Of a stretch of 64,000 nt of DNA, positions 1-52,000 are shown piece after piece; position 1 is the first letter of the stretch, and every line of letters starts with the position of its first letter. Where the stretch lies: NCBI GenBank assembly GCA_050575255.1, contig JBNZDD010013326.1, positions 1 through 64,000 of the forward strand, given 5' to 3'. The stretch is from Harriotta raleighana. Taxonomy: Eukaryota. The translations under genes were made by a program, and so were the position numbers. A model generated the notes under the pieces. That model searched no databases, had not been told where the DNA came from, and saw nothing but the letters and a program-made list of their open reading frames with translations.

Positions 1-364
1 ACAAACACAAATTGACTCCAGAACACAGTACAAACATCACAAGAAACTTTCTATTGTTCGGGGTGTTAGGATTGTGTTCTGGTGTCAGTGTTCTGCAGTC
101 ACTAGACATTATCATATTGATCATATTGATCTTCACAGTCGTACTGATTTTCACAGTTTATGATCAGAGTCAAACACCTCAATCCAATTCCCAACCTAAG
201 ACAACCAGGAATTCTAGATTTCAAAGTAGTTTAACACATTTAGCACCAATTGTGTTTTGAAAGTAATAGACGACTCACAGAATGGCTTGTAAGGCTCAAC
301 TGCAAAAGACAGTAAAGATCATTTACATTGAAACAGGCTGAACAAAGATTACACACTTGATGCG

Positions 365-1057: not shown

Positions 1058-1081
1058 CAGTTGTTTTCGGTGGGGAAGGCG
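1058..1081 (-). CDS. Family A microexon, 24 nt (TPSPPKTT)
   Basis: ttttcccag|CG ... ACTG|gtgagt. Confidence 0.8.
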
Positions 1082-4000
1082 CTGGGAAAATAATGGACAG
1101 GGTCACAATGACAGAAGGTGAAAGAATCCAAGGATAACATGTATCTGATCTCAGCACTGAATACAAATATACCAAACTACACGCCAGTTAATCAGGAAAC
1201 GTGCAGCTACTGGCTCCAGTACAACACGAATATCAAGCTTCACTTGAGGTAATTACAAGATAGTGCAGCTCTTTTGCTTGTTACCCGATATCAAGTCCGT
1301 TTTAAGGCGGCAACTTGAGCTGCATGAAGCCGATATCAAGAAGTGACTCACTTTGAGGGAAGTGACCCCAAGGTCTCCCTGGAAAACACAAACAAACATT
1401 AGTCAGGTGGGAAGGGTAAACCAAATTGGCTCACAAGAAAATGGAGAGCATATACCCATTCCTTCTTGGGAATTACAGCTGTGTAAACACACAAGTACAA
1501 ATATCATGCGGGCATTTCACCTTTCGGCATAGTTCAGGAAAGTTTGCTGAGAATGAAAGCATAAATAGTCATTGCTGCAAGAAAGATGGTTCTACACCCC
1601 TATCTGTACACCCCTATCAAGACATGGCTTTCTCACACTGGAGCATGTACTTGGTGACAATTAGATAAACTGGGCATGTTCACTCTGGAGAAGAAGTTTG
1701 AGGGGAATACGATTATGGTGTTTAAGAATCTGAAGAGGATAGATAATGTAGACCATAACAAGCTGTTTAATATGCTACTAAACAGTAGAAGCAGAGGTCA
1801 TACAATTGAAAGGAGCTAAATTAAGAACTAATCTGTGGAAACACTCAGTGTTCAGTACACAGGCTCCACAGGGTGATAGTGCAAGCAAAAATATTGTTTG
1901 TATGGATAACAAATTAAATAGAGTTCTGCTAGATTATAATATGTTAAGATTAATCAAAAATTTGAGATAAAACATAGGAAGCCACTGCCAAGTTGGTGGA
2001 AGATGATTTAGATGGAATTTTCTTTTCTTTTGCTGAGCAAATTCTTAATTATTGGAAGTGAAAGCCAACAAGGAAAATACACATCTGATTCCACCTGACA
2101 TCTGAATTCAAGTTGCCCAAATTCCAACCCATCCCACAAAACAGTGGGTCGTTGCTAGCTCCAGTCTGATACTTCATTATCAAGCTTCATCTGAGGCCAA
2201 TACAAGGTGGTGCGTTTGCTGCTCAATATCAAGGCCATTTTAAGGCTACAACTTGAGCTGTGTGAAATGGCTGTTAAAAAGTGACTATTTCCCGGTCAAA
2301 ATACAATTGGTAATTGCTCACATCAGTTTAACAGAAATAGACATGGAATCAATGACAAAATCATTATAATTTTTTTTCAAGGGATTATCGGTCTCTATTT
2401 ACTTTGGAAGAGGGAAAGTTCAATTATTTATAAATTATTCACCCTTCCCGGGTATTGAACCTTGATCCTTTCGCTTGTAAGGCTAGAGTCCATACAAGAG
2501 TTCAAAGAGTTAGATGAAACAACATAATTCTGCACGCGAATATCAAAATGAGGGGCAACATATTCCTCATTTCCTGGACTCAAAGTACAGTAAATACAGG
2601 GTTCACTCACCAGTTGTTTTAGGTGTGGGAAGACCTGAGAAAGTAAGGGGTAAAGGTCACTACTACAAGCATTGAAAACCAACCAGGCGAACACACATCT
2701 GATCCCAGCACTGAATTCAAATATCCCAAACTACATCTCAATCTGTCATGCAATGCATAACTACTGGCTCCAAAGAAAGACTTCAATATCAAGCTACACT
2801 GGAGGCAAAGGTTGTGCTGCTCCAAAATATCAACAACCAAATGACACAAAGGAAGTGCCTTCCATGGCAGGAGGACATTGCAAGGCTCTGAACAATCGAA
2901 GAACAGAAAGGTTGGAGCAGGATTGAGATGAGCGAGAGCTCCTGATACCACTATAAAGGAGGGTCTTGAGTCGAACCTTGAACAACAAAAGAAAATTATA
3001 TTTCTATGGTGCCTTCCACGTTGGGAGAACAACCTAATATGATGTACATTATTTTAGGCCTGTGTTGGGATCGTGGAGAGTGAAGGGAATGGGAGTGGAA
3101 TGCTACGTCAAAAATGATGGACTTCAGGTAGGACTCAAAGTAGGCTAGGGAGGGGGAGAGTCAGATGGATTGCACCATGGTATTCCAAGCATTGGGGGCA
3201 GAGTGACGAAATGCATACCCACCAATGGTGGGGCGTGTGAGTCAGTGAACATGTAGAAGATCCTGCTGAGAGGAGCAAGAGACCAGTTAGTAGGGTTTTC
3301 AGAGGTCACACATATAGGGTGATGCAAGGTCATAGAGGGTCTTCAAGCCCAGGATATCAGATTGAATCCTCTGTGTGTTGGGGAGCAAGAGTCGAGCAAG
3401 AATACGGGTGATAGATTAGTGGAGCATGGTTCGAGGGAAGACATGGGCTATATAATCGTAGATGGACTGCACTCTATGGATATGCTGACCATTTGTGACC
3501 AAGTTACCCTCTGCCTCCTCATCCTCCACGACCTATCCAAATCCTTCGACACTGTGGACCATTCAATCATCCTCCACCATCTTTCATCCCACCTAAACCT
3601 TCAAGGTTCTATACTTGACTGATTCTGGTCCTATCTGTCACACTGCTTCAAGTTTACGTCCTCCAATGGCTTTTTCTCCAGCCTGCACATTGCCTAATGC
3701 CTCATCCCTCAGGGCTCTGTCCTTGGTCACCTCCTGACATTAAGTCTTGGATGAGGGACAACTTTCTCCAGTTGAATGTCCGCAAAACTGATGCCCTCCT
3801 GATTGGCTTGCATCAGTGCCTCCACATCTCAGGTGCTGGCAGGATTATATAGCGACCTCCACCCCAGATGGTGTCTCAGAGCGCTTCACAATAAAGGAAC
3901 CCGGGGCTGAGCCAGGGGCAGGGGGAAAAGTTGACCAAAATGAGGCAAAAAGATTGAGGAAGGGGTTCCAGAGGCTGGGGGTGTAGTGGCTGCAGGCAAT

Positions 4001-7000
4001 GGCACCAATGGCGGATTGATGATTCAGAAGCCAAGGAAGAGGCCACACCCATGAGAGTGAAGGCAATGGATACTGTTTTGGTGAGAGAGAAGGTCCGAGA
4101 TCTAGGGATGTGTAAAGGAGTGGAGAGAATTGAAAACAAGAGTGAGGATCTTCAAATCGATCCTCTCTGAGACAGGGAGCCATTGCAGTCTGGCAAGGAC
4201 TGGTGGATTCAGGGAGTGAAGTTTGGTACATACGAGAATGCGGGCGGTAGAATTTTGGATATCCTGGATTTTATGAATGAGCAGAGGGGGAAATGGGGAG
4301 GAGGGCATTGGAATGGTCCCCCACTAATCAGGTCCCAACCTAACTGCTTTGGGACATCCTACCGATGTGAAAGTCGCTACACAATTGTAATTTTGTTTTT
4401 GTTGTTGTAGTCCAGCCGAGAAGTGACAAAAACATGGACCAGGGTTTCAGTGGCTTTTGGGCTAAGATACTGCTGTAGACGGGCAATGTGTCGGAGATAA
4501 AAGAAGGCGGTGCTGGTTAAGGACCAGATGTGGATGAAGAAGGATAATTGGAGGTCGAAACATATGCCTTCGTTTTCTTACGGGTTCGGAAAGTTAGGGG
4601 CAGATTGGGTATGCGGAGGACATGATAGCCATAGGAGTGAACTTGTTGATGAGAGCCAAAGAGTATACCTTTGATATCGTAAACATTTAGTTGAATTTTG
4701 CGCTCATCCAACTCCTGATGATGGACAGGCTGTCAGAGCATCAGGTGACCGGAGCTCGCAAATTGAGGTTGAAAAATAGACTTGGGTATCATCCACATAC
4801 ATGAGGAAGCATACCCCATGTTTGAAGGTAGCATCACCAAGAGGGAGCATCCTTGCCGTAATAATAATAATCATAATGTTAATCATAATGATAATCCTTG
4901 CATTTGATATAGAATTTTCAACATCTTCTAGATGTCTCAAAGTGCTTCATAGAATATACTGTAAAGTTAATTGAGTGTATAATTGTGGGCAAAACACGCA
5001 AACAATTGTGCAGTGTGTCCCACAAACAGTCGTGGAATGAAATGACTGATCTTGTTATGGTTTCTATTTGAGGGATTATTATTAGGCATGTGAAATAAGG
5101 AAATTTGCCTTCGCTGGATTCGAACACAGGTCTCATGTTTGTACGATGAGTGCTGTAACCATTGTTCGACTGGTTTCCATGCCATGAAGACCTATAGATA
5201 ATTGGTTATAGCACCCCTCAGGGTGCAAAAACCCTTGTCCATGCATTCGCCACATCAAGGCTCGCCTATGAAAACTCTCTCGTCCTCTGCCATCCCCGCT
5301 CTTCCGTTCATCAAGAACTCTGCAGCTTGTATCTCTCCGACACTGAGCTCTGCAACCACATCACTCCCACCCTCACCCAGCTCTACTTGCTCCTGATCCC
5401 CCAGAGGAGAGAATTCAAGTTTAAACTCAAGATTAAACTTAATCTTCAAATCGATCCTCACTCTTGTTTTCAATTCTCTCCACTCCTTTACACATCCCTA
5501 CATCTCTAACCTCCTCTCTCATCACAACAGTACCCATTGCCTTCACTCTCATGGGTGTGGCCTCTTCGTTGGCTTCTGAATCATCAATCCACCATTGGTG
5601 CCATTGCCTGCAGCCACTGAGCCCCCAGCCTCTGGAACTCCCTTCCTCAATCTCTTTGCCTCAATTCCTTCCTGGCCTCCTTCATGGCCGGTCTGAACGA
5701 GTACTCTCCTCTTTGATCGTGCCTTCACCTGCCCTCCCAACTTCCTCCTTCCCCAATTTACTCACTTACTTCCCTCCCCCATCAGCTGCCCTTTCTACGG
5801 GGCTCAATCTAACTGTTCGGCGCTTTGGGATGGCCTCCCCAAGTGAAAGACGCTCTATAAATGCATTGTTGTTTGGAGCCAGTCAGTGCCTGAAGTGCAG
5901 AGGTGCAGGCACAATCCACGGTTCCTCAGCCTTGTTGACTTTTAACTTCAGTAAGTTAGATCTCATCCAGGATGATGTCTAACATATTGATAGGGAGAGG
6001 CAAAGAGATAGAGATCGGTGTCATCCAAGTCATTTAGAAGGTTACTCCATGTCTTTGGATGATGCAACCAACATAGAGGTTAAAGAGGAGGGCACTTGGG
6101 AACAGACCAGTAAAACATTACGTGAGATTTTGAGATGTATGAGAAATATTTGGCAGAAAAATATTGGCGAGATCTAAGAAAAAATTGAACCATTCAACAA
6201 CAGAACCTGCAAGATTGAGGTGAGATGAGAGGCAGTGAAAGAAAAAGGATCCATCCATTTTATGAACAAAGTGACTGCAGGTCTTTTCAACGCTGTAACT
6301 TTAGCAAGTATTTAAATCGACTCACTTGTATGTACGTAACTCCAAGGTCTCCCTGGAAAGCACAACCCAATGTTAGTCAAACGGGAATATCAAACAAAAT
6401 TACTGGGTGTTGGAGACTATAAAGTAATAAATGGCTCAGAACAAAATGCAGAACATATCCTCGAAAATAACACCAGTGAAAACACTCAACAAGTAGAACA
6501 TGTGTATATGAAAACACACGTTCAATGGTTTATAGTTGATCAAATCTTCTGCAAACTGAAATGAATCCCAGCGGAGAGTTCAGATGCACAGACCCCACTC
6601 GCGTTTCTCCAGAGTAAAATTCATCTGGCCTGTGTCTTCTGATTTTCCAGTCTGTCTATGTCTTCTTCCAGTCTACTCCTATTGTTCTCACAGTTTGCTG
6701 TTCTTCCCAGCTTAGTAGCATTGGCAAACTTGGAAAATATACTTCCTAAACCTACTTCGAACTTATTCAGCTGATAGGCATCCTCTCGGTGTATTGCCGA
6801 GAAATTGAAATTTAGACCAAGAATCTTAATTCTACACGTGAATCTCAATAGGATCACAGAAATATATAGCACACAGGCAGGCCTTTTAAGGTATCTAAAC
6901 CAGCTCTTTCAATAGAGCTATCCAAATCAATCTTACAGCCTGCTCTCTACTCAGGGGCCTGAAAACTTCTCCTCCCAAAATAATTACCCTATATTTGCTT

Positions 7001-10000
7001 ATATAGATGCCAAGGTCTCACTGCTGTGTTACTCTTTAAGATTGTACCACTCAGCTAATGTTGGCTCTCCTTATTCTTCCTTCTAAAATCCATGTCTATG
7101 CACTTTTCCACATTAATCTTCATCTGCCACTTGTCTGCCCATACCACCAGTCTGCCTATGTCCTTGAAGTCTGGTTACTATTTACCTCATCATTTACAGT
7201 ACATCCTAGCTTAGAATCTTCTGCAAAATTGGAAATTGTACTCCCTGTAACCAAGTTCATGACATTATATAATCAACAGATCATTGGTCAATAAATTCTG
7301 AATTTCCTGGGCTATAAGAACAGTAAAAGCGGGGCTCACTCACCAATAGTTTTGTGTGGGAGAGTGGCTGAGAAAATAAGAAGCAATGGTCACTACTGCA
7401 GAAAGTGAAAGAATCCACGGAAAACAAACATCTGATCGCAAATATCCCAAACTAATATCCCATTGCTGGCTCCAATCTAACACTTGAATGTCAAGCTTCA
7501 TCTGAGTCAAGTTTATGGCGGTATGTTCTTTCCCCTGTTACTCAACATCTTTAGCCCACTTTAGGGCTCCAAATTGAGCTTTATGAAGCCGATATTAAAT
7601 AGCGACTCACTTATAGGGATGCGACTCCAAGGTCCCTCTGGAAAACACAAACAAGCATTATTCGGAAGGGAAGAGTAAAGGAAATAACTGGATNNNNNNN
7701 NNNNNNNNNNNNNNNNNNNNNNNNNNNNNNNNNNNNNNNNNNNNNNNNNNNNNNNNNNNNNNNNNNNNNNNNNNNNNNNNNNNNNNNNNNNNNNNNNNNN
7801 NNNNNNNNNNNNNNNNNNNNNNNNNNNNNNNNNNNNNNNNNNNNNNNNNNNNNNNNNNNNNNNNNNNNNNNNNNNNNNNNNNNNNNNNNNNNNNNNNNNN
7901 NNNNNNNNNNNNNNNNNNNNNNNNNNNNNNNNNNNNNNNNNNNNNNNNNNNNNNNNNNNNNNNNNNNNNNNNNNNNNNNNNNNNNNNNNNNNNNNNNNNN
8001 NNNNNNNNNNNNNNNNNNNNNNNNNNNNNNNNNNNNNNNNNNNNNNNNNNNNNNNNNNNNNNNNNNNNNNNNNNNNNNNNNNNNNNNNNNNNNNNNNNNN
8101 NNNNNNNNNNNNNNNNNNNNNNNNNNNNNNNNNNNNNNNNNNNNNNNNNNNNNNNNNNNNNNNNNNNNNNNNNNNNNNNNNNNNNNNNNNNNNNNNNNNN
8201 NNNNNNNNNNNNNNNNNNNNNNNNNNNNNNNNNNNNNNNNNNNNNNNNNNNNNNNNNNNNNNNNNNNNNNNNNNNNNNNNNNNNNNNNNNNNNNNNNNNN
8301 NNNNNNNNNNNNNNNNNNNNNNNNNNNNNNNNNNNNNNNNNNNNNNNNNNNNNNNNNNNNNNNNNNNNNNNNNNNNNNNNNNNNNNNNTCCAGTTCAGCA
8401 TTTCAATATCAAACTGCATCTGAGGCAAAGGATGTGCTTCTCCTCCAACATCAACAAAATTATACAAATAAATCAACTTCCAGATGGACGGATATTAGGA
8501 CTCAATCTGGGATGGTTGAACGATGGACCAGTGAATGAGGAGGGTCTTGCGGCATCACTTGAAGGAGGCTTGGGTTGTGGCAAGCCAGAGCAATTGTGCG
8601 GTGGAAATTCAGAGATTGGGGACAGAGTGGCAGAAGACTTGACTGGCGATGGTGGGGCGGGTGGGGAGGTGGTAGCTAACATGGGGTGTAGGGAAGCTTA
8701 CAATGGCGAAGGGTAGGCTAGCTAACCTGGATTGGGTTCAGACTATTTAACATGGGGTGATAGGATGACTAACATTGTAGGGGTAGTCATGCTACCATGG
8801 GGTAGGCGTTAACATGGGGGGTAGGCGAGCTAACATTGGGCGGGGAGAGTGTAAATAGTTGAAATTATAGTATAAGTTTTATTGATCATGTAGTAAATAA
8901 TCAAATCAATTAAAATGTATTGAACAAATGATGCCATGTGGTTTGGAATACACAAACACAGTTCACTATAGAAACATTTAGATAGACTTATACTTGAATG
9001 TGACTAGATAATGGGATTGGGAGAATAGCACTGAAAGAGCTGAGAAATGTTCAGACCAGTAAGTCACGCAGACAGAGCCAAAGACAGGACAATGAATTAT
9101 TGAAAATGTTCTGACCATCAAGGACAAGTAAGTCAGGAGGTCTGGTCAGGCTAGATAAGATGGAATGGAGCAAATTTTCTAAGGTGTACAAAGTAACAAA
9201 TTTGAAGATAGGGAAGAATGCCAAGAGAAGGTTAGCAAATATACACTTTACACTATATATTGTGTGGAGCACTATGAGACAGGAGAAGTTTAACACAGTG
9301 GCAGAGATGGCAGAAGTATAACACGATAGCAGGAATGAAGCTGGTCAGAAACGAAAGGATCTCTGAAGGGAGGTAGAGATCCTAGTCTAGCTCTCGGCAG
9401 AGTAGAGCACAGAAGGAAGCACGTCTAGTTCTTGATACAGTGAACGACAAGCAACAATGCAGCAGAGAAAACAAGCCAAAGACGTTTGCAGCCAGAAGCA
9501 AGTCAGAGGCTGTGTTTAATTCTTGGGCCAGCCACACATCCATACGAGGAGTCCGTTGAGCAATCTCTTGACTACTCTTTAGTATCTATCCTGCTGACTA
9601 ATACATGCATCCAATATACCAGGACAGTCAGTCATTGCTTAAGCACATCTCTTATACCAAACAAGGTTTCTTTTATGTTTAGAATTATGATTTTTAAAGA
9701 ACCTTGTTAAGATAGTATTTTAGTTGGTTTCTGACAAACGCTTTACTCCCGTGCTCCCCTCTCCAAGGTGCAAAAACCTTACATACTACCTTAAATCTGT
9801 GCACAAGTTTGGTCACCACACTTTAGGAAGGATATTAAGCCATAGGAAAGGGTGTATAGCAGATTTACTGGGATGAAACCAGGAATGAGGGAATTCAGCT
9901 ATGAGGAAAGGCTACATAGGCTAGGCTTGTTCTCTCTAGAACAAAGAAGATTGAGAGGAGAACTAATAAAGGTTTATAAGATAATGAAAGGTATCAGGGT

Positions 10001-13000
10001 AAATAGGGAAAGACTGTTTCCACTGGTGGGTGAATCAGTGACTCGTGGTCACAGATTTAAAATAGTTTCAAAACGAAGCAGAGGGGAGCTGAGGAGAAAT
10101 GTTTTCACGCAGCGGGTTGTTCGAATATGGATTGCCTGAAAGGGTAGTGGAGGCAGATTCCATAACAGCTTTTAAAAGCGAACTAGAGATTTATTTAGGA
10201 AGAGCAGGACTGTTAAGTTATGGGGAGAAAGATGGGCAGTGGGATTGAGTTGCTCTGTTCAAAGAGCGGTCCCAGACTAGATGGGCTGAATGGCCTCCTT
10301 TTACGCCATATAATTCTATGATTCTATAAAATCCTCCCAGTACGACAGCTATGTCCGATCCTGTAAGGCACAAAAACGAGCCACAGAATGCACCAGGAGT
10401 TAATCCAAACTAATGATCCATCATTATATTTAGCTGGATTACACACAGATCTACCACTCCACCTTTGTCTCTGTCAAATCCTCAGTCTATTCAAGGTGAT
10501 CGTGGAACCCAGTGAAACTGCCAGGCTTCTCCTATGCACTATTAACCACTCCCTCCATCCACCTTTCCATACCTCGCCAACCCTTTCCTCCATTTACATG
10601 GAGTTGCTGGAATTCCTTGAATCCATAATTGAGGGGATGCATTCGAACAACAAGCAGGTCAGAGCTCACTGAGCGGAGGAAGTAGAAAGATTGGTAGGGT
10701 GTTAGGAGCTGACCAATATAGGTTTGGGAAAGGCCATGGAGGGCCTCAAAGGTGAGGACCTCTATATTTTTGTGGAACCATCCAAAGACATGGTGTGAAC
10801 TTACAGATGTGCTTGGATGACACCCAGCTCCATCTCTCTGCTTCAACCTGACTAGCTATCAGAGATCAAGTCCTAGATGAGAACTAACTTTCTAAAGTAA
10901 AATGTCAATAATACTAAGGACCTCCTGATTGGCTCGCACTAGCGTTCATTCAAGAATAGTTTTTGTCACTGTAGTTTCCTTCCAGGTAAGAGGGAGATTT
11001 AGCTAAATTAGACTGGGGAAATATATGAAAGCATATGACAATAGATCATCAATGGCAAGATGTAGTGCATAATTCCCAGCAGTCACAATTCGCTTGAGGA
11101 ATAAAAGTATCACTTGAAAGTTGTTCTTTCATGACTAAGTAGAGCAGTTAGGAGTTAAATCTTTTAGAGTTTTGTGAGGAGATAACTATCAGATTATATA
11201 CGGGTGAATGAATAGATGTAATGTATTTAGATTTTCAAAAGCCATTCAATAAGTTGCTGCATAAAAGACTGATTCACAAGATTAGGGTCCATGGAATTAA
11301 AGCTAACATACCAGTGTGGATTGAAGAGTGGTTAACAAGAAGAACATAGAGAATAGGGATAAATAGATTCTTTTCAGATTGGTGGAATGTGACTAGTGGA
11401 GTTCCACAAGTATCAGTGCTTGGGCCTCAACTATATCGATGATCTAGAGTAGAACATCACATTTAAAAATATCTAAATTTGTAGATGATACTAAACTAGG
11501 AAGGGGAGTAAATACCAAGGATGACACAAAATAATACAACGGCTTACAGATAGGCTAGAAAAGTGGGCAAGAAGATGATAGATGAAATATCATGTGGGGA
11601 AGTGTGAAGTTATTCACCTCAGTAGTAAAAACAGAAAAGCACATTGTTTTCTGGAAGGGGAGAGACTAGATTGTGTGAGTGCAGAGGGACTTGGGTATCC
11701 TTGTACACCAGTCACAAAAAGTTATTATGCAGGTACAGCAAGCAACTAGGATGGTCAAAGGTATGTTGGGTTAGAATATAAGAGTAGGGAAGTCTTGCTG
11801 CAACTGTACAGGGCCCTGGTGAGACCCTACCTAGAATATTGTGCACAGTTTTGGTCTCCTTATTTAAGAAAGGATGTACTCGCCTTGGAGCAAGTACAGT
11901 GTAGATTCACTAGGTTGGTACCTGCAATGACGGTGACGTGTTATGAAGATAGGTTGAGCAATGCAGGCCTATATTCACTAGAATGTAGAAGAATCAGAGG
12001 TGATTTTACAGAAACCTATAACATTATTAAGTGGCATGACAGAGTAGATAATGGGAGGTTACTTCCCCTGGTTGGAGACACTATAACTATATGTCATTGT
12101 CTCATAGTCTTACGATTAGGAGTCAGCCTTTTCGCACTAAGTTGAGAAAAAACAGTTTCACTTAGAGAGTAGTGAATTCTGGAAATCTCTACCCCAAAAG
12201 GCTGTATTGAAGATTGATATTGATAGATTTCTTATGGATCAAGGGATTAAGGGATATGGGAATAAGGCAGGTGGGTGGAGTCAGATTTGAAGTTCAGCCA
12301 TGAATATATTGAATGGCAGAGCAGGCTTGAGGGCGTCGAATGGCCTAGATTCTAGATTCATAAGAATGATTCCAGGAATGGGGAACCTTAGCTGTGAGGA
12401 TGGCTGGAGAAGTTAGAACTTTTCCCATTAGAGCAGAAAATGTTATGCGCGAATCTGATAGAGGTCTTCAAGATCATGAAATGTTTCGACAGGCTAGATA
12501 GGGAAAAGCTGTTTCCACCGGTAGGTGTGTCTCACAGACTTAAGATATCTACCAAAAGAAGAAGAGGGGAGGTTAGAAGAAATGTTTTCACTCAGCGAGT
12601 TGTTCGAATTTGGAATGATCTGCCTGAAAGGGTAGTGAGTTCCAATTTGACAGCAGCTTTTAAGAGAGAACTAGATAGGTATCTGGGGAAGATGGGTTTG
12701 CAGAGTTGTGGGGAGAAAGCTGGTGATTGGGGTTAATAAAAGTGACATTGCTCTGCCAAAGAGCCGGCACAGACTCGATGGGCCGAATGGCCTCCTTCTG
12801 TGCCGTAACATTCTACGATTCTATTTTCCTGCTCCTAATTCTTATGTTCTTATTTCAGAACATGCAATTTTGAGGTGAGAAGAGAAACAGTGGAGGAGGT
12901 TGGAGTGATCCAATATATCGAAAGCAACAAAGAGGTTGTAGGCCATTTTAAGGCTGCAACTTTAGCTCTGTGAAGGAGGTGTTCGAAAACAACTCACTTG

Positions 13001-16000
13001 TAGGGACAGGACTCCAAGGTATCCCTGGAAGACGCAAACAAATGTTTGTCAGACAGGAATATTCAGGATAATCACATCTTCAGTGGATTACAGATGATCA
13101 CGTCTTCTGCGAACTGAAATGTATCCCAGCAGAGGTCAGATGCACAAACTCCAGTTGCATTCACCTTCATAATGCAGGATTACTGATTGCTCCTCACTTA
13201 GCATTTCTCCATTGTAATCTTCATCTGCCCTGTGACTGCCCATCTTACCAGTCTGTCTATGTCTTCTTGCAGTCTGAATGCTGTCATGCTATTTAGAAAT
13301 CTATCCAGCTTAATATTAGCTGTAAACTTGGAAAATGTACTTCTTAAACCTAACATTAGTCAATCTTACCCATCTGATCAATAGTAAATACATTCTGCAG
13401 CTCCTGGGTTCTACATACAGTAAACATGGTGCTCACTCACCAGATGTTTTAGTTGTCAAAGAGGCTGAGAAAATAATGAGCAAAAGTTAATAATATAGGA
13501 AATAAGAGCCGGCCAGAAAACACATTTCTGATCCCAGCACTGAATTCAAATATCCCAAACTACACTACAGTCCATAATGTAATGTGAAATTTCTGGCTCC
13601 AATCCAGCACTTATATGTCAAGCTTAGTGTGAGACATATGAGGTGCTGCTGCTCTCTCGTTTGCTACTCAATTACCAGACTATTTTAAGAGCTGTATGAA
13701 GTTGATAATAAAAAGCAACTCACTTGTAGTGACGTAATTTGAAGGTCTACCTGGAAAACAAAAGCAAACGCCAATCAGATTGGAAGATTTAAGGAAATCA
13801 CTGGATATTTGAGAATATGATCAATCATGCAGTAAAATGGGAACCATAATAATAATCTTTGCATTTAATGACCTTATCGTGACTTCAAGCTGTCTGATTG
13901 CATATTATGTGGGAAAAATACAGCTGCCAGTTATGCACAGCAGTGTCCCACAAAGGGGCCTGGATTGTGCAACCCAATTATTAATATAGTAGTTTTTTAA
14001 ATAAATCATTACACCTGAAAAAGCAAACCACTGATCATCCAATATCCAAGTTTGTACTTACTACAGTAAAACTTTGTTTATCCGGCACGCTTGGGGTGGG
14101 GTCGACGAATTGACGGTGCCGGATAAACAGGGAGAAGTCGCCGAAAACTCGACATGAAAACTTAACTTAATTTAAAACATACCATGTTAATAATACACTA
14201 CATAGTAACAGAATATTGTATGGAGACATACCAACAAAGCATTCTAGCAGAATCGCAAAAAAATCGGTAACACTGCATTTTGTAACCAATCAGTAAAAAG
14301 CTTAAGTGCGTAAGTTTAATAAGTGAGCATGCGCACGCATTGCACGCATGCACAAAGTGAGCAAACTCGTGATTCTGGAATGGGGAATTGTCCTGGTAGG
14401 GGATCGAGCAATTGAATCGAGTCACGGTTGTTCGGGTCATGGATAAACAAGGTTTTACTGTATTAGGTTATCTGAAGCATGAAGCAAAAGGAATCTACTC
14501 AACAGTTTGCAATGCTGGGAATTTAACCCAGGTTTCTCGCTTGTGAGTTATTTGCTCTAGTCACTGAACTGCAGGAATCCATCAAATTGAAAATTAAATT
14601 CAGACACTGCTGGGAATTACACTTGTCCAAACACACAACAAATAAAACCTGCATTCAGAAAAATCATATAAGAACCTAAGAATTAGGAGCACAAGTAGGC
14701 CGTTTAGCCCTTCGAGCCTGCCCCACCATTCAATAAGATTATGGCTGATCTTCTGGCCTAACTCTAATTACCTGCCCTATCCCCATATCCCCTAATCAAG
14801 GACCAAGCATCTATAGCCTTCTGGGGTAGTGAATAAATTCACTACGCTCTGAGTGAAGAAATGTCTCTTCAACTCTGTTCTAAAAGTCTGACACTTAATT
14901 TTAAGACAGTGACTCCTGGTTATAGATTCTCCTACCAGGGAAAACAGTGTCTCAGTGTCTACTTTATCCAGCCCTTTCAGAATCTTATATGTTTCAATAA
15001 GATCCCCACTAATTCCTCTGTAAACTCTCGAGATTACAGCCCTAGTTCATTCAACCTATCCTCATAGGTCAGTCCCCTCATCCCAGGAACTAACCTAGTG
15101 AATCTACGCTGCATCCCATTTAAGGCAAGTATGTTCTTTTTTAAATAAGGAGACCAAAACTGCACACAATACTCTAGAGCAGACACCCCAAAGCCCTATA
15201 CAGTTGCAGCAAGACATCACTACTATTGCACTCTAAACGTTTTGAAATAAACACTAGCATGCCATTCGCCCTCTTAGTTGCTTGCTGCACCTGCAAACTA
15301 ACTTTTTGAGACTGGTGTACAAGGACACCCTTTGAATACTAACAATAGTTAAACTCTCTCCTTCGATAAAATAATCTGTTCTTGTATTTTTCCTACCTAG
15401 GGGAATAATTTCACACTTGCCAACATTAAATTCCATCAATCCAAACATTCAACTACAAAACCTAGCACTGAGTCGTTCTCACTGCTCTCTGCAATTAATA
15501 TGTGGAACATATAACAAGCGCGTTTCTCACCTATCGGCAACTGTTCAGGAAAGCTTGCTGAGAAAGAAAAAAAGCAAAGTCACTGCTGCAGGTACTGAAA
15601 GCTGACAACACAAACACAAATTGACTCCAGAACACAGTACAAACATCACAAGCAACTTCCTATTGTTCGGGGTGTTAGGATTGTGTTCTGGTGTCAGTGT
15701 TCTACAGTCACTAGACATTATCATACTGATCATATTGATCTTCACAGTCGTACTGATTTTCACAGTTTATGATCAGAGTCAAACACCTCAATCCAATTCC
15801 CAACCTAAGACAACCAGGAATTCTAGATTTCAAAGTACCAGTTGTGTTTTGAAAGTAATAGACCGACTCACAGAATGGCTTGTAAGGCTCAACTGCAAAA
15901 GACAGAAAAGATCATTTACATTGAAACAGCCTAACCAAAGATTACACACTTGATGAGATAACATAAGAACATAAGAACTAGCAGCAGGAGAAGGCCATTT

Positions 16001-40000: not shown

Positions 40001-43000
40001 GTTTGTAAGATGAGTGCTTTAAACATTCATCTACCGGACTCCATGCCATGGAGACGTATAGATCAATGGTTAGAGCACCCCTCAGGGTGCCAAAATCCTT
40101 GTCCATGCATTCGCCACATCAAGGCTCGCCTATGAAAACTCTCTCCTCATCTGCCATCCCCACTCTTCCCTTCATCAAGAACTCTGCAGCTTGTATCCTC
40201 TCCAACACTGAGCTCTACAACCACATCACTCCCGCCTTCACCCAGCTCTACTTGCTCCTGATTCCCCAGAGGATAGAATTCAAGTTTCAACTCTATGTTT
40301 CCTGCCCGACCTATCCTACCATCGGTCAACAGGCTTTGAACATCTAATCCCCCACAATGTGGAACTCCATTCCATAGTCTCTATGCCTCACTTCCTCCCT
40401 GGCCTCCTTCATGGCCGGTCTGAAGACTCTCTTCTTTCACCGTGCCTTCTCCTCCCAACTTCCTCCCTCCCCAATTTACTCACTTGCTTCCCTCCCCCAT
40501 CAGCTGCCCTTTCCTCGGGGCTCAATCTAACTGTACAGTGCTTTGGAATATCTCCCTGAAGTGAAAGACGCTCTATAAATGCATTGTTGTTTGGAGCCAG
40601 AAAGTGCCTGAAGTGCAGAGGCGCAGGCACAATCCACGGTTCCTCAGCCTTGTTGACGTTTAACTTCAGAAAGTTAGATCTCATCCAGGATGATGTCTAA
40701 CATATTGATAGGGAGAGGCAAAGAGATAGAGATGGGTGTCATTCAAGTCATTTGTAAGTTTACTCCATGTCTTTGGATGATGCTACCAACATAGAGGTTA
40801 AAGAGGAGGGCACTTGCGAACAGACCCAGTAGAATATTAGGTGAGATTTTGAGGAGATGTATGAGAAACTTTTGGCAGAAAAATATTGGCGAGATCTAAG
40901 AAATAAGGCCTGAACCATTCAACAACAGAACCTGCAAGATTGAGTTGAGATGAGAGGCAGTGAAAGAAAAAGCATTCATCCATTTTATCAACAAAGAGGC
41001 CACAGGCCTTTTCAAGGCTGTAACTTCAGCTGTGGGAAGCAAATATTTAAATCGACTCACTTGTATGGACGTAACTCCAAGGTCTCCCTGGAAAGCACAA
41101 CCAAATGTTAGTCAAACAGGAATATCAAACAAAATTACTGGATGTTGGAGACTATAAAGGAATAAATGGCTCAGAACAAAATGCAGAACATATCCTGGAA
41201 AATAACACCAGTGCCATCACACAACAAATAGAATATGTGTATACGAAAACACACGATCAATGGATTATAGATGATCAAATCTTCTGCAAACTGAAATGTA
41301 CCCAGCGGAGAATTCAGATTCACAGATCCCACTCACATTTCTCCATATTAAACTTCATTTGCCCTGTGTCTTCTGATTTTACCATTCTGTCTATGTCTTC
41401 TTGCAGTCTGCTCCTATCGTTCTCACTGTTTGCTGTTCTTCCCAGCTCAGTATCATCTGAAAACTTGGAAAATGTACTTCCTAAACCTACGTCCGTCTTA
41501 TTCAACTGGTCAATAATAAATATAGCTCCTGGGTAATCATGGTGCTCACTCACCAGATGATTTAGTTGTCAAAGAGGCTGAGAAAGTAATGAGCAATAGT
41601 TAATAAGATAGAAATAAAAGACAGCAAGGAAAACAAACATCTGATTCCTACACTGAATTCAAGCATCCCAAACTACACTACAGTCCATAATCCAACCTGG
41701 AATTTCTGGCTCCAATCCAACACTTGCATATCAAGCTTACTCTGAGACATATACAAGGTCATTTCTCATATATAGAGCATATAGAGCAATTGTGGGGAGG
41801 AATTCCAAATGTTGGGGGCTGAGTGCCAGAAGTGAGAACAGACAGATGTGTTTTGATGACATGCAGCTCTATCTCTCTGCCACACCCTGAATAGCTGTTG
41901 GACGTCAAGTCCTGGATGGGAACTAACTTTCCAAAGTTAAATGTCAATAATACTGAGAACCAACTGATAGGTTTGTGCAAAGCTACCATTCAAGGACAGA
42001 ACCTGCAAGATTGAGGTGAGAAGACAACTGGTGCAGGAGGACGGAGTGGTCCAATGTATCGAAGGCAGCAAAGAGGTTGCGGGCGATTTTAAGGCTGCAA
42101 CTTCAGCTCTGTGTAGCAGGTATTTGAAAGCAACTCACTTGTATGGATGAGACTCCAAGGTCTCCCTGGAAAAGACAAACAAATGTTAGTCAGACAGGAA
42201 TATCAAAGGAAATTACTGGGGATTGGAGAGTATAAAATTATAAATATTTGTAATCTTTAGTGGATTAAAGATGATGTCTTCTACAAACTGATATGTATCG
42301 CAGCGGAGAGTTCAGATGCACAAACCCCATTTGCATTCACCTTCATGATGCAGAGTTACTGATTGACCCTCGCTTTGTATTTCTCCACATAAAATTTTAT
42401 CTGCCCTCCGCCTACCCATTTTACCAATCTATCTGTCTCCTTGCAGTCTGCTGTAATCATATTGTTTACTACTCCACCTATCTTAGTATTTTCTGCAAAC
42501 ATGGAAAATGTACTTCCTAAACCTAAATCCGTCATTTTCATCTTGTCAATAGTAAATACATTCTGCAGTTCCTGGGTTCTAAGTGGATTATGAGGTGGTG
42601 CTGCTCTCTCGTGTGCTACTCAATATCCAGACCATTTTAAGAGCTCCATGAAGCAGATATAACAAAGCAACTCACTTGTAGGGATGTAATTCGAAGGACC
42701 ACCTGGAAAATACAAGCAAACGCCAATCAGATTGGAAGACCTTGGCAAATCACTGGGTGTTGGAGAATATAGTGAATCAAGCAGCTCATAGTAAAATAGG
42801 TATAATAATAATAATCCTTGCATTTGCATCATGACTTCAAGCCATCTGAAATTGCTTCAAAGAATATACAGTAAACTGAATTGATTGCATATTATATGGG
42901 AGACACGTATCTGCCAGTTACTCACAGCAGAGTCCTGCAAAGGGGCCTGGATTGAGCAACCCAATTATTAATAGATTTTTAAAGGAATCATTACCCCTGA

Positions 43001-46000
43001 AAAAGAAAACTGCCATCTGCCTAATAACCAAGTTGCTACTTACTTCTAGGTTACCCAAGGTGTGTAGCATCATAAGGAAACGTGTCCAACAGTTTGCATG
43101 GCTGGGAATTGAACCAAGGTTTCTCGCTTGTGAGTCAAGTTCTTTACCAATGAGCTGCAGGTATCCATCATATTGATCCAACACAAACCCCGCTCGCTTA
43201 CCCCTTCATCGTGCAGGATTACTGATTGCTCTAAACATTCAAATAACAAATACAGCACCAAGACAATATTCTCACTGCTCCCTGCAATTGATATGCGAGG
43301 TATATAACAAGCATCTGTCTCACCTATCGGCCGCTGTTCAGGTAGTCTTGCTGAGAAAGAAAGAAAGGAAAGTCACTGCTGCAGTACCTGAAAGCTGACA
43401 ATGCAAACACACACTGACTCCAGAACACAGTCCAAAAACCTATTTTGCTGAATTTCACATTTCCTGATCAGAGCCAAACACATCAATCCAATTCTCAACC
43501 CAAAGCAACTGAGAATTCTATATTTCAAAGCAGTTAACACTTTGAGCACCAGTTTGGTTTGGAAAGTAATAAATGATTCACAGAATGGCTTGTAAGGGGG
43601 AAATGCAAAAGACAGAAAAGATCATTTACAGTGAAACAGGCCAAACATAGATTACACAGTTGTTGTGATAACAAATTAAGTTACAACAAATTGAACGATG
43701 GACTCCAGCGTTGATAGGCATCCTCTCAGTGTATTGCCAAAGTTGAAATTGAGACCAAGCAATTTAATTCTACATGTGAATCTCAATACGTTCAAAGAAA
43801 CACACAGCACAGCAGGCCTTTTAAGGTATCTAAACCAGCTCTTTCAATACAGCTATCCAAATCAATCTTACAGCCTGAATTGGAAGCTGCCATAGTCAAT
43901 CTTTGATTGTAAACAGACTGTGTTTATTTGTGTACCCCGTCTTTTCACACTCTAAAAAAGCACGGTCAGGTAAACTCAACAGAGTTGAATTGTAGTTTCA
44001 GTGAAATTCACAAAACATGGCACTAAACCTTGTGAAACAAGGAATATCAACAAGCAACTCTGAAATAGTATCCCACACATAGAAGTAGACACAGTGATAA
44101 AGTGATTATGATTAGTTTTTGAAGGGATTCTTATTCTTATTAAAGGATAACCTATTACGAGGTGAATAGAGACAAATCGAGTAATATAAATTGACAAATT
44201 ATTCACCCTGCCCAGAAATAAAATCCTGGTCCTCTCATTTGTGACCCCTATGTGCACGCTCATGATATGGGTCACTCCCATTGCAGTGTGTACCTGGTAG
44301 CTTCAACAACAACTTTGATTTATATTGCACCCTCCATGCTCAGAGCGCTCAAGCTTCTGATTCAAATGTCACAAAATGAATTCAAGTCCATATAACATTT
44401 ATTTAAATGATGAGAAAATAATCTGTAATGACAATGAAAAGGAACTGGGAATCCTGCTGCATAATAAATTGAAGCTATCCCAACACTACTGAGCAGTTGA
44501 AGCAGAGGGCATGCGTTTGAAAGTGACTAAACTTAGAACAATTCTGTGGAAACACTTAGTGAGCCTTTAACAAACTAAAGCAATAAGCTTCCTTAGGTGA
44601 TGTGGAAGCAGAAAATATTGTATCCTTGAAGAGGAAAATAATATCTCAAGATTTCGTAAAACATTTCAGACACCAATTGAAGCCACTGCCAAGATGGTGG
44701 AAGGTGAATTAGATGGATGTTTGCTTTTTTTTGCTTCGCAAATTCTTAATCATTGCAAGTGAAAGCTGACAATGAAAATACACATCTGATTCCATCCATT
44801 ATTTGAATTCAAATAGCCCAAATTCCACCCCGTTCCATCATGCAGTGAGCCATTGCTGGCTCCAGTCTGACACTTCACTATCAAGCTTCTTCTGAGGCCG
44901 ATACAAGGTGGTGCTGCTCTCTCGTTTGCTCCTCAATATCAAGGCCATTTTATGGTTGCAACTGGAATTGTATGAAGCAGATATTAAAAAGCAACAATTT
45001 TGTGGGAAAAGTGCAGACAATTATACATGGTAGTTTCATAGAAATTGTCTTTTTTTTTCCAAGTGATTGTTGATCCCTGTTGACTACTGGGTTAACAGAA
45101 GTTATTTTGGGGAGAGGGAAAGGTTAATTATTTGTCAATTATTAACCCTGCACAGATATCGAAAGCTGATACTTTCACCTGTAAGGCAAGCATTCTAACC
45201 AACTGAGCTGCAGTGCTCCACATCTTAGTTCTCAACTTAAGGCAACTGGGAATTTATATTTGAGTGACATTTAACATATTCAGCATGAGTTGCGTTCAGA
45301 AACTAGGAAAGAACTTCACAGAATGGCTGGTAAGACTCAACTGCAAAAGAAAGCACAGATCATTTGGAGTGAAACACGCAACACGCGCATGAAACACGTG
45401 ATGTAAAAGCAAATTGCATTGAAATTATTTCAACAATTCACTCCAAAAGTGATACAGACATGATCGGTATAAAACAAGAGTTGAAACTTAGACCAAACAA
45501 TATAATTCTGCGCATCAATCTCTATGATATATTCTGCATTTCCTGTGCTATAAGTACAGTAAATATGGGGTTCACACACCAGTTGTTTTATGTGTGGGAG
45601 GGGCTGAGAACGTAAGGAGCAAAGGTCACTACTACAGGAAGTGAAAACCAAGAAGGAAAACACATATCTGATCCCAGCACTAAATTCAAATATCCCAAAC
45701 TACAACCTAGTCAATCGTTCAATGTGCAATTACTCACTCCAGTTCAACATTTCAATATCAAGCTGCATCTGAGGCAAAGGTTGTGCTGCTCCTCCAACAT
45801 CAACAAAATTATACAAATAAATCATCTTCCAAGGTGGGAGGACACCCTACCTGGAGAGATATTTGGACCCAATCTGGGATCCGTGTGTGTGATGGTTGAA
45901 TGATGGACTGGTCAATCAGCAGGGTCTTGAGGCATCACATGAAGGAGGCTTGGGAGGTGGCACGCCAGAGCAATTGTGCGGTGGAAATTCAAAGATTGTT

Positions 46001-49000: not shown

Positions 49001-52000
49001 ATCGATGATCTAGATGAGGACATACTTACATAGCACCTTCTGTCAGCATTAAATCTTGTGATGCAATAGATGTCAACAAACAACTATGAAACCCAGGAGC
49101 CAAATGTGCACAATAGTTTCCCACACTTAGGTGTGGATTGAATGATCAAATTATTATTATTTTTTTAAAAGGGATTTTTACATCCAGAAAAGTGATCCAT
49201 TAATCGACTAACAACAGGATTCTAAATTACTAGCAATTGAACAAAGGCAGGTGGAATACAGCAACTTGGGAAATTATTTACACTGCCCAGGAATCAAACC
49301 CTGGTCCTCTTGTTGCAAGGTCAGCAAGCTCACTCCTAAACTGCAAGACTTTACATCACAATTCTCAACCTAAAGCAACTGGGAATTCTATATTTGCAAC
49401 ACCAGTTTGATTTGGAATCTAGCAAATGACTTACGGAATGGCTTGTAAGGCAATGGATTTCAATGCCTTGGGATGTTGTCCTGACATGAAAGGCACTATA
49501 CAAATGTAATTTTGTTGTTGTTGTTGGATGAACTGCAAAAGGACACTTACAAAGAAGCAGGCAAAACAAAGATCACACAGTTAACATGATAACAAATTAA
49601 TTCCAAAGGAATTGAATGATTGAAAACAAAAGTTTTACACAAATAGGTATGTTACAAAAGTTGAAAGCTACTTCATTCTGCTCAACAAGATGGACAATAC
49701 ATTATGCATTTCCTGGGCTGTACGTACAGTAAATAGGGGGTTCACTCACCAGTTGTTTTAGGTGTAGGAAGGGCTGAGAAAGTAAGGAGCAAAGGTCACT
49801 ACTACAGGAAGTGAAAACCAACAAGGAAAACACACAACAACAACTAAATTACATTTATAGAGCGCCTTTCACATCGAGAGGACGTCCCAAAGTGCTGAAC
49901 AGTCAGGTCGGGACCCGAGCAAGGGGGAGGAACAGGGTACGGGGGACGGGAGGGAGAGAGTTAGGAGGGCAGCAGAAGACACAATCGAAGAGAGGTTCTT
50001 GAGACCAGCCTTGAAGGAGGCAAGGGAGGAAGTGAGATGAAGGGACTGTGGGATGGAGTTCCAGAGTGTGGGGGCAGAGAGGTTAAAAGCTTATCCAGGA
50101 TAGATCAGGTAGTGGACATGGAGCAGACTGAAGCCCACTGAACTGAGAGGCAGGCAGATTCATACGGAGTCAGCTGGTCAGAGAGACAGGAGGGAGCAAG
50201 GCTGTGAATGGCATAGACAGTGAGGATAAGGATCTGATCATTTGATCCCAGCACTAATATCAAATATTCCAAACTACAGCCCAGTCTGGCATGCAATGTG
50301 CAATTCCTGGCTCCAGTCTAACAATTCAACACCAAGCTTCATCTCAGGCTAACACAACATGGTTCTGCTCTTTCGTGTGCTACTCAACATCAAGAACATT
50401 TGACGTTAACAGCTGGTTGTGTTAAAAAAATGTAACAGAAGTGACTTACTTTTGGGATTGTAATACCAAGGTCTTCCTGAAACAGAGTAAAACAAATGAT
50501 GAATAGTGGTTAGCAACTTGTCTGTGTAAAGATCTATGTAGATATAAAAAGAGAAAAGTAACATCATTTTCTATCACCTCAAAGTCTAGGCTGATGTTCC
50601 AAAAGCAACACTAACAAAATTATAATTGTATAGCTCTGAGAGGATGTCCCACAGTGCTGAAAGCAGTGCCTGGAGAGGAACTCTGCTTTGTTATAGATGT
50701 CCTCATCTTTGCTGAACCTCTAAACCAGTGGTGGCCAACTGGCTGGAATTAAGGAGTGCCCATCAAGTAGTGCCCAGTGAACTAGAAATGATAGATCTTG
50801 TATTTCCAGTTTTCTCTTGATTGCATACATCTTGATTTGTTGCATAAATTAAGAAATGATCAAACAAAAAAGTGTATTTCGCTATCACATCAATCCCACC
50901 CTCGCCCATCTCCACTGGCTCCCCATCTCCCAAAGGATCAAATTCAACATCCTCGTCCTCACTTTCAAGGCCATTCACGGCCTTGCCCCCACCTCTCTGA
51001 CCTGCTGTCTCCCTATCAGCCTGCCTACCCCCTTCATTCAGCACTCAGGCTTGTTCCGCATTGACCGCCCTAACCACCCAACCATCGGTGGCCAGGCTTT
51101 CAGCTTCTCTGCTCTCACACTGTGAAACTCCATCCCGCAGCCCCTCTGCCTTGCTTCCTCCCTTTCCTCCTTCAAGTGCTTCTTCTTCGACTGCACCTTC
51201 AGCTCCCCCTCTAACTCTTCCCCCTCCCTCTCCCCAGAACCCCCCCCCCCCCAACACCCGCCCCCACCCACCTTGGGTCCTGACCTGACTGTTCAGCGCT
51301 TTGGGACATCCTCCCGACATGAAAGATGCTTTATAAGTGCAATTTTGTTGTTGTATTTTTGGCCAACCATAAAAATTGCAATAATCCAGGGTCATCTCTG
51401 CTGCTCAGTTGGATTTTAAAGATCACATGATTAACCTCTATAAAACTTTGGTTAGAGCTCAGCTAGAGTACTGTGTTCAATTCTGGAAGGATGTTTAGGA
51501 ATTGGAAAGGCAGAGGAGATTTACCAGGATGGAACCAGGAATGAGGGATTTCAGTTATAAGGAAAGGCTAGAGATGCTAAGTGCATTCTCATTGGAGCAG
51601 AGAAGATTACGAGGAGACATCATAGAGGTTTTCAAGATCATGAGGGGATTTGTTAGGGTAAACAGTGAAAAATTGTTTCCACCTGGGGTGTGTCAGTGAC
51701 TCGAGGTCACAGATTTAAAATAGTTTCTAAAAGAAGCAGAGGGGAGGTGACGAAAAAAAAATTCACTCAGCAAGTTATTCAAATCTGGAATGTATTGCCT
51801 GAAAGGGTGGTGGAGGCTGATTCAATAATAACTTTTAAAAGAGAGGTAGATGTTTATTTGGGGAGAATGGATTTGCATGGTTATGGGGAGAGAGCTGGGG
51901 AGAGGGATCAAATTGCTCTTTTCAAAGAGCTAGCACCGACTCGATGGACCGAATGGCCTCCTTTTGTGCCATATGGTTCTATGATGCTATTCGAAAAGAG

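What the first reader, a model, noticed from the sequence alone, without database searches (positions are those of the whole stretch)
1058..50476. Any subset of cassettes splices in frame with no junction stop: potential combinatorial isoform generator
Seen: all intact cassettes are phase 1-1 and all end in G (families A, C) or A (family B). The split codon therefore always starts with a purine and can never be TAA, TAG or TGA. Skipping only changes the junction residue (G/A/E versus R/T/S/K). Inference: exon skipping could give a polydisperse mucin whose length and glycan/aromatic pattern are set by splicing rather than by VNTR alleles.
Basis: partly seen in the sequence, partly recalled or inferred. 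Interest (0 to 1): 0.8.

Follow-up and report, generated by a model that had tools for sequence, protein, structure and literature searches.

The report
Mucin-6 repeat built from micro-exons
A cartilaginous-fish mucus protein gene builds its repetitive middle from about ninety tiny in-frame exons; this design and the idea of varying it by splicing are known from bird, frog and parasite mucins, and the claimed stop-proof junctions are an imperfect by-product of how the exons were duplicated.

Summary
The cassettes are real: 21-27-nt phase-1 micro-exons encoding the repeat domain of a Muc6-like gel-forming mucin (98% identical to Callorhinchus milii mucin-6-like over one exon). 'Any subset' is false literally, though nearly true in practice (at most about 2% of simulated skipped chains). 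Purine ends need no special explanation: 16 of 18 donors picked in the gene's ordinary exons also end in a purine, and each family inherited its last base from one founder. The array grew by multi-kb tandem duplication and loses cassettes (damaged copies, exonless flanks), so allelic copy-number variation is not excluded. Splice-set mucin length was proposed for chicken Muc13 in 2006 and is reported for frog FIM-C.1. No RNA was available; splicing is untested. New here: Muc6 with micro-exons, and a Pro/aromatic-rich repeat below the PTS threshold. The scan noted similar arrays in two other genomes, not this gene.

The parts
61563..61747 (-). Muc6-like exon, VWD3 domain (acceptor edge approximate)
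   Evidence: 87% to C. milii protein
61058..61297 (-). exon, end of VWD3 and start of C8; phase 0-0
   Evidence: PF00094; 98% to C. milii mucin-6-like
60591..60747 (-). exon, C8 domain; phase 0-1
   Evidence: PF08742, E 2e-14
57863..58003 (-). exon, cysteine-rich end of D3 assembly; phase 1-1
54475..54537 (-). last cysteine-rich exon before the array; phase 1-1, anchors the frame
   Evidence: boundary corrected by one base from the printed flanks; matches the C. milii model P0003
53658..53681 (-). unique micro-exon, 24 nt, ends G
   Evidence: counterpart in P0003
52853..52879 (-). unique micro-exon, 27 nt, ends G
52335..52361 (-). unique micro-exon, 27 nt, ends A
   Evidence: counterpart in P0003
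279..50476 (-). whole repeated array, families A-D: 48 recognisable cassettes (42 with AG/GT and in-frame length), continues off the contig start
50450..50476 (-). B, 27 nt, starts GA, ends A
49750..49773 (-). A, 24 nt, ends G
49435..49455 (-). D, damaged (acceptor side disrupted)
45580..45603 (-). A, weak donor GTGTGT
45320..45340 (-). D, 21 nt, ends T, weak donor GTGAAG; TAG if joined to B28126 or B7611
43582..43602 (-). D, damaged (no AG)
43324..43350 (-). C, 27 nt, ends G
42676..42702 (-). B
42139..42165 (-). B
41554..41577 (-). A
41061..41087 (-). B
37419..37444 (-). C, damaged (26 nt, no AG)
37223..37249 (-). B
36928..36951 (-). A
35822..35842 (-). D, damaged (no AG), ends T
35455..35481 (-). 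C
33788..33814 (-). B
30178..30201 (-). A
30135..30158 (-). A duplicate beside a single N; probable assembly artefact
29870..29890 (-). D, intact, ends C
28329..28355 (-). C
28126..28152 (-). B, starts AG (stop partner of T-ending D)
27837..27860 (-). A
27153..27173 (-). D, damaged (no AG, no GT)
26880..26906 (-). C
26235..26261 (-). B
25696..25722 (-). B
24971..24994 (-). A
24704..24724 (-). D, intact, ends C
24465..24491 (-). B
24194..24208 (-). A shortened to 15 nt, still in frame
23683..23709 (-). B
17867..17890 (-). A
17199..17225 (-). B
16905..16928 (-). A
15872..15892 (-). D, intact, ends T, donor GTGAGT; TAG if joined to B7611
15531..15557 (-). C
13724..13750 (-). B
13441..13464 (-). 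A
12998..13024 (-). B
7611..7637 (-). B, starts AG (stop partner of T-ending D); a 695-N gap lies just upstream
7344..7367 (-). A
6326..6352 (-). B
2611..2634 (-). A
1521..1546 (-). C, 26 nt, AG and weak donor GTGAAA; frame-shifting if used
1352..1378 (-). B
1058..1081 (-). A
279..299 (-).

Best explanation
The array is the central repeat domain of a Muc6-like gel-forming mucin (D1-D2-D'-D3, repeat domain, short cysteine-rich segment, cystine knot). Shown: four families of 7-9-codon phase-1 exons, each with its own flanking intron, were multiplied by tandem duplication of multi-kb blocks, and some units have since lost a splice site or the whole exon. Inferred: only a symmetric exon survives duplication or loss, so phase 1-1 is a precondition of this growth. 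The last base of each family is the donor -1 base of its founder, held by the donor site; three founders had the usual purine and one did not. Inferred: most cassettes are built for inclusion (near-consensus donors, branch-point-like motifs), dead ones are always skipped, and weak ones leak. The product is probably heterogeneous through splice leakage plus allelic copy number, without a dedicated combinatorial programme. The domain probably works as a flexible, partly O-glycosylated spacer whose exact sequence matters little.
For: Domains and orthology. Duplication blocks of 15-20 kb period and a 1,921-bp tandem. Damage: 11 of 103 A-D copies on four contigs, plus flanks without a recognisable exon (7 B-type, 7 A-type, 3 truncated D, read by eye). 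Purine ends in ordinary exons of this gene: 16 of 18 picked donors, 6 of 8 in phase 1; 35 of 49 in a noisier set from four mucin genes. Donors: GTGAGT, GTAAGT or GTGAGA in 85 of 92 intact A-D copies; branch-like motif in 78 of 95; donor +1..+6 divergence 0.045 against intron 0.107. Relaxed protein constraint: pN 0.090, pS 0.093 in 33 pairs. Symmetric exons of disordered proteins often arise by internal tandem duplication (PMC3632108). In chicken MUC2 a primer survey found only one splice variant (PMC3549977); frog Otogl, multi-exonic, gave a dominant long-range RT-PCR product (PMC5789918).
Against: No transcript of this gene was seen, so inclusion levels are unknown. Exons of 21-27 nt are below the usual exon-definition size and prone to skipping (own knowledge). 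Stop-forming pairs are rare (3 of 820), which also fits selection for skippability. The only pyrimidine-ending family is among the two that decay most (C and D intact 22 of 32, A and B 70 of 71), though this ignores the exonless A/B flanks and the copies are not independent. The donor control was picked automatically, is small, and two of its 18 picks belong to one exon. The link between the window and the 3' end on C13227 crosses contig ends and is inferred.
Confidence: 0.68

Rival explanations
1. The array is a selected or regulated combinatorial splicing cassette, like frog FIM-C.1, SmPoMuc or schistosome MEGs: cells choose subsets or blocks of Thr-rich (A) and aromatic (B, D) cassettes to tune length, glycosylation and cross-linking.
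For: All 92 intact copies are symmetric; at most 1.9% of randomly skipped chains gain a junction stop; families differ strongly in chemistry (S+T 45% in A, aromatic 33% in D); 7 of 92 copies have weak donors; FIM-C.1 is described as highly polymorphic through alternative splicing (PMC7177656); MEGs use small symmetric exons this way (PMC4350168).
Against: Symmetry and purine ends are expected without it; family D breaks the rule; donors are mostly near consensus; the natural order puts S/T at 27 junctions against 21 in shuffles (p about 0.01, but blocks are duplicated and not independent); independent skipping barely changes length.
Confidence: 0.22
2. Much of the array is not used: many cassettes are drifting pseudo-exons, and the mRNA carries a short repeat domain.
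For: pN equals pS, and exon divergence (0.089) is not clearly below intron divergence (0.107; pN against intron p 0.23); many dead units; most database models of orthologues stop soon after D3.
Against: 0 of 42 internal stops in phase 1 against 7 and 21 in the other phases; AG and GT intact in 70 of 71 A/B copies; donors conserved; models in C. milii (P0021, P0003) and a bamboo shark (P0022, about 12 nine-residue repeats running into the same C-terminal domain) include such cassettes, although these are predictions.
Confidence: 0.1

Closest known systems
Callorhinchus milii mucin-6-like (XP_042197479.1; C-terminus XP_007909925.1) and shark or ray orthologues; vertebrate MUC6
   Same: 98% (C. 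milii) and 77-82% (sharks, rays) identity over one exon; three VWD units, repeat domain, cystine knot, no fourth VWD; the same four cassette families in C. milii. Two C. milii Muc6 paralogues are known (PMC4948705, passages).
   Different: Mammalian mucin domains are typically one long exon (PMC5789918, passages); here about 95 micro-exons. The repeat has S+T 25-26%, below the 40% norm. The RefSeq model reads the cassettes in another frame, and the C-terminus is a separate record.
Chicken Muc13 (PMC1552070, passages)
   Same: Each exon encodes one repeat unit; the authors proposed in 2006 that splicing could set domain length within an individual.
   Different: Transmembrane mucin, one 20-residue repeat type, at least 12 repeats; here a secreted mucin with four families of 7-9 codons.
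Xenopus FIM-C.1, FIM-B.1 and Otogl/MucXS
   Same: [quoted passage not shown] A 1996 paper on spliced repeat units of FIM-B.1 is recalled only; searches did not find it.
   Different: Other mucin subfamilies; splicing was reported there and is untested here.
Schistosoma mansoni SmPoMuc (PMC2576457, passages) and micro-exon genes (PMC4350168, passages)
   Same: SmPoMuc: a 27-bp exon inside a ~1-kb genomic repeat encodes a 9-residue mucin repeat. MEGs: very small symmetric exons spliced into variant pools.
   Different: Parasite multigene families with no homology tested here; there, variation is shown in cDNA and linked to host interaction.

Membership tests
Gel-forming mucin, Muc6 type | Three N-terminal VWD-C8-TIL units | tested here: met
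   Pfam VWD and C8 in window exons; tblastn of orthologues covers D1 to D3 at C13326:54-83 kb
Gel-forming mucin, Muc6 type | C-terminal cystine knot and no fourth VWD | tested here: inconclusive
   Cys_knot/DAN hits below the curated cut-off on two exons at C13227:40.8 and 44.1 kb; no VWD hit between the last cassette and 69.7 kb; but the 3' end lies on another contig, linked by shared cassettes and by orthologues
Gel-forming mucin, Muc6 type | Closest relatives are Muc6 proteins | tested here: met
   13 of 14 hits are named mucin-6-like, the other is an unnamed C. milii VWD protein; no tree was built
Gel-forming mucin, Muc6 type | PTS domain: S+T at least 40%, P above 5% (PMC4948705) | tested here: not met
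   S+T 25-26%, at most 30-33 per 100 residues; P 20-21%; aromatic 10-11%. Only family A alone reaches 45%. Bamboo shark repeat: S+T 9%, Tyr 21%
Gel-forming mucin, Muc6 type | Head-to-head with Muc2 in the mucin cluster | tested here: inconclusive
   An opposite-strand VWD gene starts at C13326:176.8 kb, beyond a second same-strand paralogue; its identity was not tested
Splice-diversified micro-exon genes (MEG, SmPoMuc, FIM-C.1 type) | Run of very small symmetric exons | tested here: met
   92 intact A-D cassettes plus 3 unique, all phase 1-1
Splice-diversified micro-exon genes (MEG, SmPoMuc, FIM-C.1 type) | Many exon combinations seen in transcripts of one individual | not testable with these tools
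   3 of 820 pairs TAG, a 26-nt cassette, and T+AA at the first C-terminal exon
VNTR-polymorphic mucins | Allelic copy-number variation of repeats | not testable with these tools
   One assembly only; recent tandem units present

The most novel reading that the evidence does not exclude
Cartilaginous fishes carry a Muc6 paralogue whose core is not a glycan brush but a chain of about 95 or more micro-exons in Thr-rich and aromatic (Trp/Tyr/His) flavours, spliced in regulated, tissue-specific combinations to tune the gel: a vertebrate counterpart of schistosome micro-exon genes, hidden because annotation splits the gene and reads it in another frame.
Probability: 0.15. Interest if true: 0.7.

Novelty: new variant of a known kind. 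Interest (0 to 1): 0.32.

Why it matters
If splicing of these cassettes is regulated, it is an unusually clean vertebrate system for testing the 2006 proposal that mucin length is set within an individual by splicing, and for studying how a non-neural cell includes dozens of 21-27-nt exons in a row. Even without that, it corrects the annotation of a chondrichthyan Muc6 (frame and split gene) and points to a Pro/aromatic-rich repeat, shared in kind with sharks, that PTS-based screens would miss. The specific 'no junction stop' rule carries little information.

Tried and rejected
RNA: the look-up of sequencing runs on three D3 exons: no RNA holder listed, so no reads were laid; this is not evidence either way. 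Transcript-derived chains in protein databases: one search found no candidate; some searches gave 4 hits and one search gave no isoform sets; the named records are genome annotations (one, P0021, has no informative name). Phases 0 and 2 for the cassettes: rejected (internal stops; upstream frame). The frame of RefSeq model XP_042197479.1 is therefore taken as wrong: it enters the array through lengthened exons, while P0021 reads the same cassettes in phase 1. Coding constraint as proof that cassettes are exons: not obtained (pN equals pS). Selection on the last base: 1 difference in 33 pairs, p 0.12, inconclusive. SRRM3/4-type TGC near the acceptor: 54 of 95, no control, not used. Micro-exon array in the upstream paralogue (C13326:84-120 kb): scan gave 5 unrelated candidates and no HMM hits; two gaps lie there. 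Stronger purifying selection on A/B than on C/D (p 2e-5): not trusted, because exonless A/B flanks were left out and copies are related. Egg-jelly or capsule role: speculation only; the listing showed nothing on Muc6. PMC2042186 was not held. No supplementary files were read; those of PMC4948705 may hold C. milii Muc6 models.
Full report
WHAT IS THERE. A scan for short AG...GT segments on the minus strand and family HMMs give 51 cassettes in the window: 3 unique, 15 A (24 nt), 17 B (27 nt), 7 C (27 nt) and 9 D (21 nt). Upstream lie exons for VWD and C8 domains. One of them is 98% identical to Callorhinchus milii mucin-6-like and 77-82% to shark and ray proteins (14 hits), so the genome is probably a chimaera-like fish (inference). 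The N-terminal exons run to about 83 kb of the same contig. The array continues on C13227, C11566 and C11429: 92 intact and 11 damaged A-D copies in all, one copy cut by a gap left out. C11429 and C11566 share a 99.8% identical kilobase, so a few copies may be counted twice. After the last cassette on C13227 come a short cysteine-rich segment and cystine-knot exons, with no VWD hit in between. Orthologous C-termini exist in C. milii, bamboo sharks and skate; the shark and skate records lie on contigs of the same length as those of the N-terminal records.

CHECK OF THE OBSERVATION. Phase 1 is right: the last cysteine-rich exon ends in phase 1, and 0 of 42 intact in-frame cassettes have a stop in phase 1, against 7 and 21 in the other phases. 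For A, B and C in 1058-50476 the claim is exact: 37 cassettes, 666 ordered pairs, no stop, residues A,G,T,R,S,E,K. But family D was left out. It has a pyrimidine tract, AG and GT in 5 window copies and 11 overall, and ends in C (7) or T (4). The C. milii RefSeq model holds 9 D-type segments among 62 cassettes, a prediction, not RNA evidence. With D, 3 of 820 pairs in the span give TAG, and 6 of 3,240 across the window plus C13227 give TAG or TGA. The first C-terminal exon starts AA, so the 4 T-ending D copies would give TAA. A 26-nt C copy keeps AG and a weak GT. In fairness, these exceptions are rare: with random skipping 0.36%, 1.7% and 1.9% of chains gain a cassette-cassette stop at 70%, 50% and 20% inclusion (the terminal exon was not in that simulation).

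IS THE PURINE RULE MORE THAN CHANCE? No. The last exon base is the -1 base of the donor, where G dominates (own knowledge). In the ordinary exons of this gene 16 of 18 automatically picked donors follow a purine, 6 of 8 in phase 1; a noisier set from four neighbouring mucin genes gave 35 of 49. The 37 cassettes descend from three founders, so three purines have a chance of 0.36-0.70, and the fourth family drew a pyrimidine. Symmetry is likewise expected, since symmetric exons of disordered proteins often arise by internal tandem duplication (PMC3632108, passages).

HOW THE ARRAY EVOLVES. Each cassette sits in a repeated intron unit. Blocks of 1-3 kb recur at 15-20 and about 35 kb offsets with about 81-93% identity, and C13227 starts with a 1,921-bp unit repeated 3-4 times (3-77 differences in about 900 bases). 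Two near-perfect duplications in the window sit on single Ns and are probably assembly artefacts. Some units lost AG or GT; others keep the flank but no recognisable exon (7 B-type, 7 A-type from what looks like one inherited deletion, 3 truncated D; read by eye). Such dead units must be skipped, so symmetry already pays at the DNA level. In 33 disjoint paralogue pairs, pN was 0.090 and pS 0.093, exon divergence 0.089, intron 0.107, donor hexamer 0.045: frame and splice sites are kept, residues drift. Donors are GTGAGT, GTAAGT or GTGAGA in 85 of 92 intact copies.

HOW IT MOST LIKELY WORKS. A gel-forming mucin that polymerises through its D domains and cystine knot (established for the family; PMC1552070, passages), with a spacer of at least about 670 residues (368 + 305) assembled from micro-exons. 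Most cassettes are probably included, dead ones skipped, weak ones leaky (inference). With 81 cassettes, 99% inclusion leaves 44% and 95% leaves 1.5% full-length chains, yet length varies by only 8 and 16 residues. So sequence micro-heterogeneity is almost unavoidable, while real polydispersity needs block skipping or allelic copy number. Neither was measured here.

THE REPEAT IS NOT A CANONICAL PTS DOMAIN. S+T is 25-26% (at most 33 per 100 residues), Pro 20-21%, aromatic 10-11%, Lys+Arg 13-14%, against a norm of at least 40% S+T (PMC4948705, passage). A is Thr-rich, B and D are aromatic. A bamboo shark model has nine-residue repeats with 21% Tyr and 9% S+T; their exon structure was not checked. 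This is the most unusual feature I found, and its function is unknown; aromatic cross-linking or adhesion is a guess.

COMPARISON WITH THE KNOWN. Chicken Muc13 has one exon per repeat, and its authors proposed splice-controlled length within an individual (PMC1552070, passages). FIM-C.1 is called highly polymorphic through alternative splicing (PMC7177656, passage). Otogl has a multi-exonic mucin domain and gave a dominant RT-PCR product (PMC5789918, passages). Chicken MUC2 spreads its repeats over many exons, and only one variant was found (PMC3549977, passages). SmPoMuc has a 27-bp exon in a 1-kb genomic repeat (PMC2576457, passages), and MEGs splice small symmetric exons into variant pools (PMC4350168, passages). 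Two Muc6 paralogues in C. milii are known (PMC4948705, passages). Searches listed no paper on the micro-exon array of chondrichthyan Muc6; the library lacks most subscription papers. The scan's earlier notes hold nothing on this genome and two similar arrays elsewhere, not checked.

VERDICT. Real gene, real micro-exon array, a new variant of a known kind. The headline rule is slightly wrong and uninformative; the splicing hypothesis is plausible, old and untested here. Interest 0.32; most novel reading 0.15 likely, worth 0.7 if true.

Noticed in passing
G000:C13326:120-158 kb (minus) and 177-195 kb (plus); G000:C13227:69.7-97.9 kb (plus): Three more VWD mucin genes flank this one: an upstream same-strand paralogue, a head-to-head gene, and a downstream same-strand gene. 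This could mean more tandem Muc6-like genes than the two reported for C. milii; identities not tested. The upstream one shows extra VWD2-type exon hits at about 132-142 kb.
   Followed up: partly
Database record XP_042197479.1 (P0003): The C. milii RefSeq model strings 62 cassettes (C, B, A, D) in a frame that gives a Leu/Gln/His-rich repeat; the frame fixed by the flanking domains gives the Pro/Thr/aromatic one. The C-terminus is a separate record (XP_007909925.1).
   Followed up: partly
P0022, P0018, P0007, P0010, P0011 (shark models): Shark orthologues carry nine-residue Pro/Tyr-rich repeats with almost no Ser/Thr (S+T 9%, Tyr 21% in P0022).
   Followed up: partly
window 18086-20984 and 30125-30209: Near-perfect tandem duplications (1,445 bp at 99.7%; 43 bp), each with a single N at the joint (19540, 30167): probable assembly artefacts. 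Similar single Ns occur on C13227.
   Followed up: partly
L049 (C11566:7940-8939) and L050 (C11429:1-1000); window 6772-7693: A kilobase is 99.8% identical between two small contigs and 96% to the window next to its gap: a very recent duplicate, a second haplotype or a misassembly.
   Followed up: no
window 1521-1546, 37419-37444; C11566:1500-1525: A C subfamily lost one base; all three copies have a weakened donor and one lost its acceptor, as if frame-shifting copies are silenced.
   Followed up: partly
first 8 nt of cassettes B, C, D: Most B, C and D cassettes hold a second AG 2-5 nt inside the exon; its use would shift the frame, another limit on error-free splicing.
   Followed up: no
window introns, e.g. 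9800-12850 and 14660-15420: Many fragments that look like CR1-type LINE ends and other interspersed repeats (recalled motif, not tested) lie inside the duplicated blocks and could date the duplications.
   Followed up: no
G000:C13227:38324-38384: A Thr-rich candidate exon between the last cassette and the first cysteine-rich exon, with an unclear donor.
   Followed up: no
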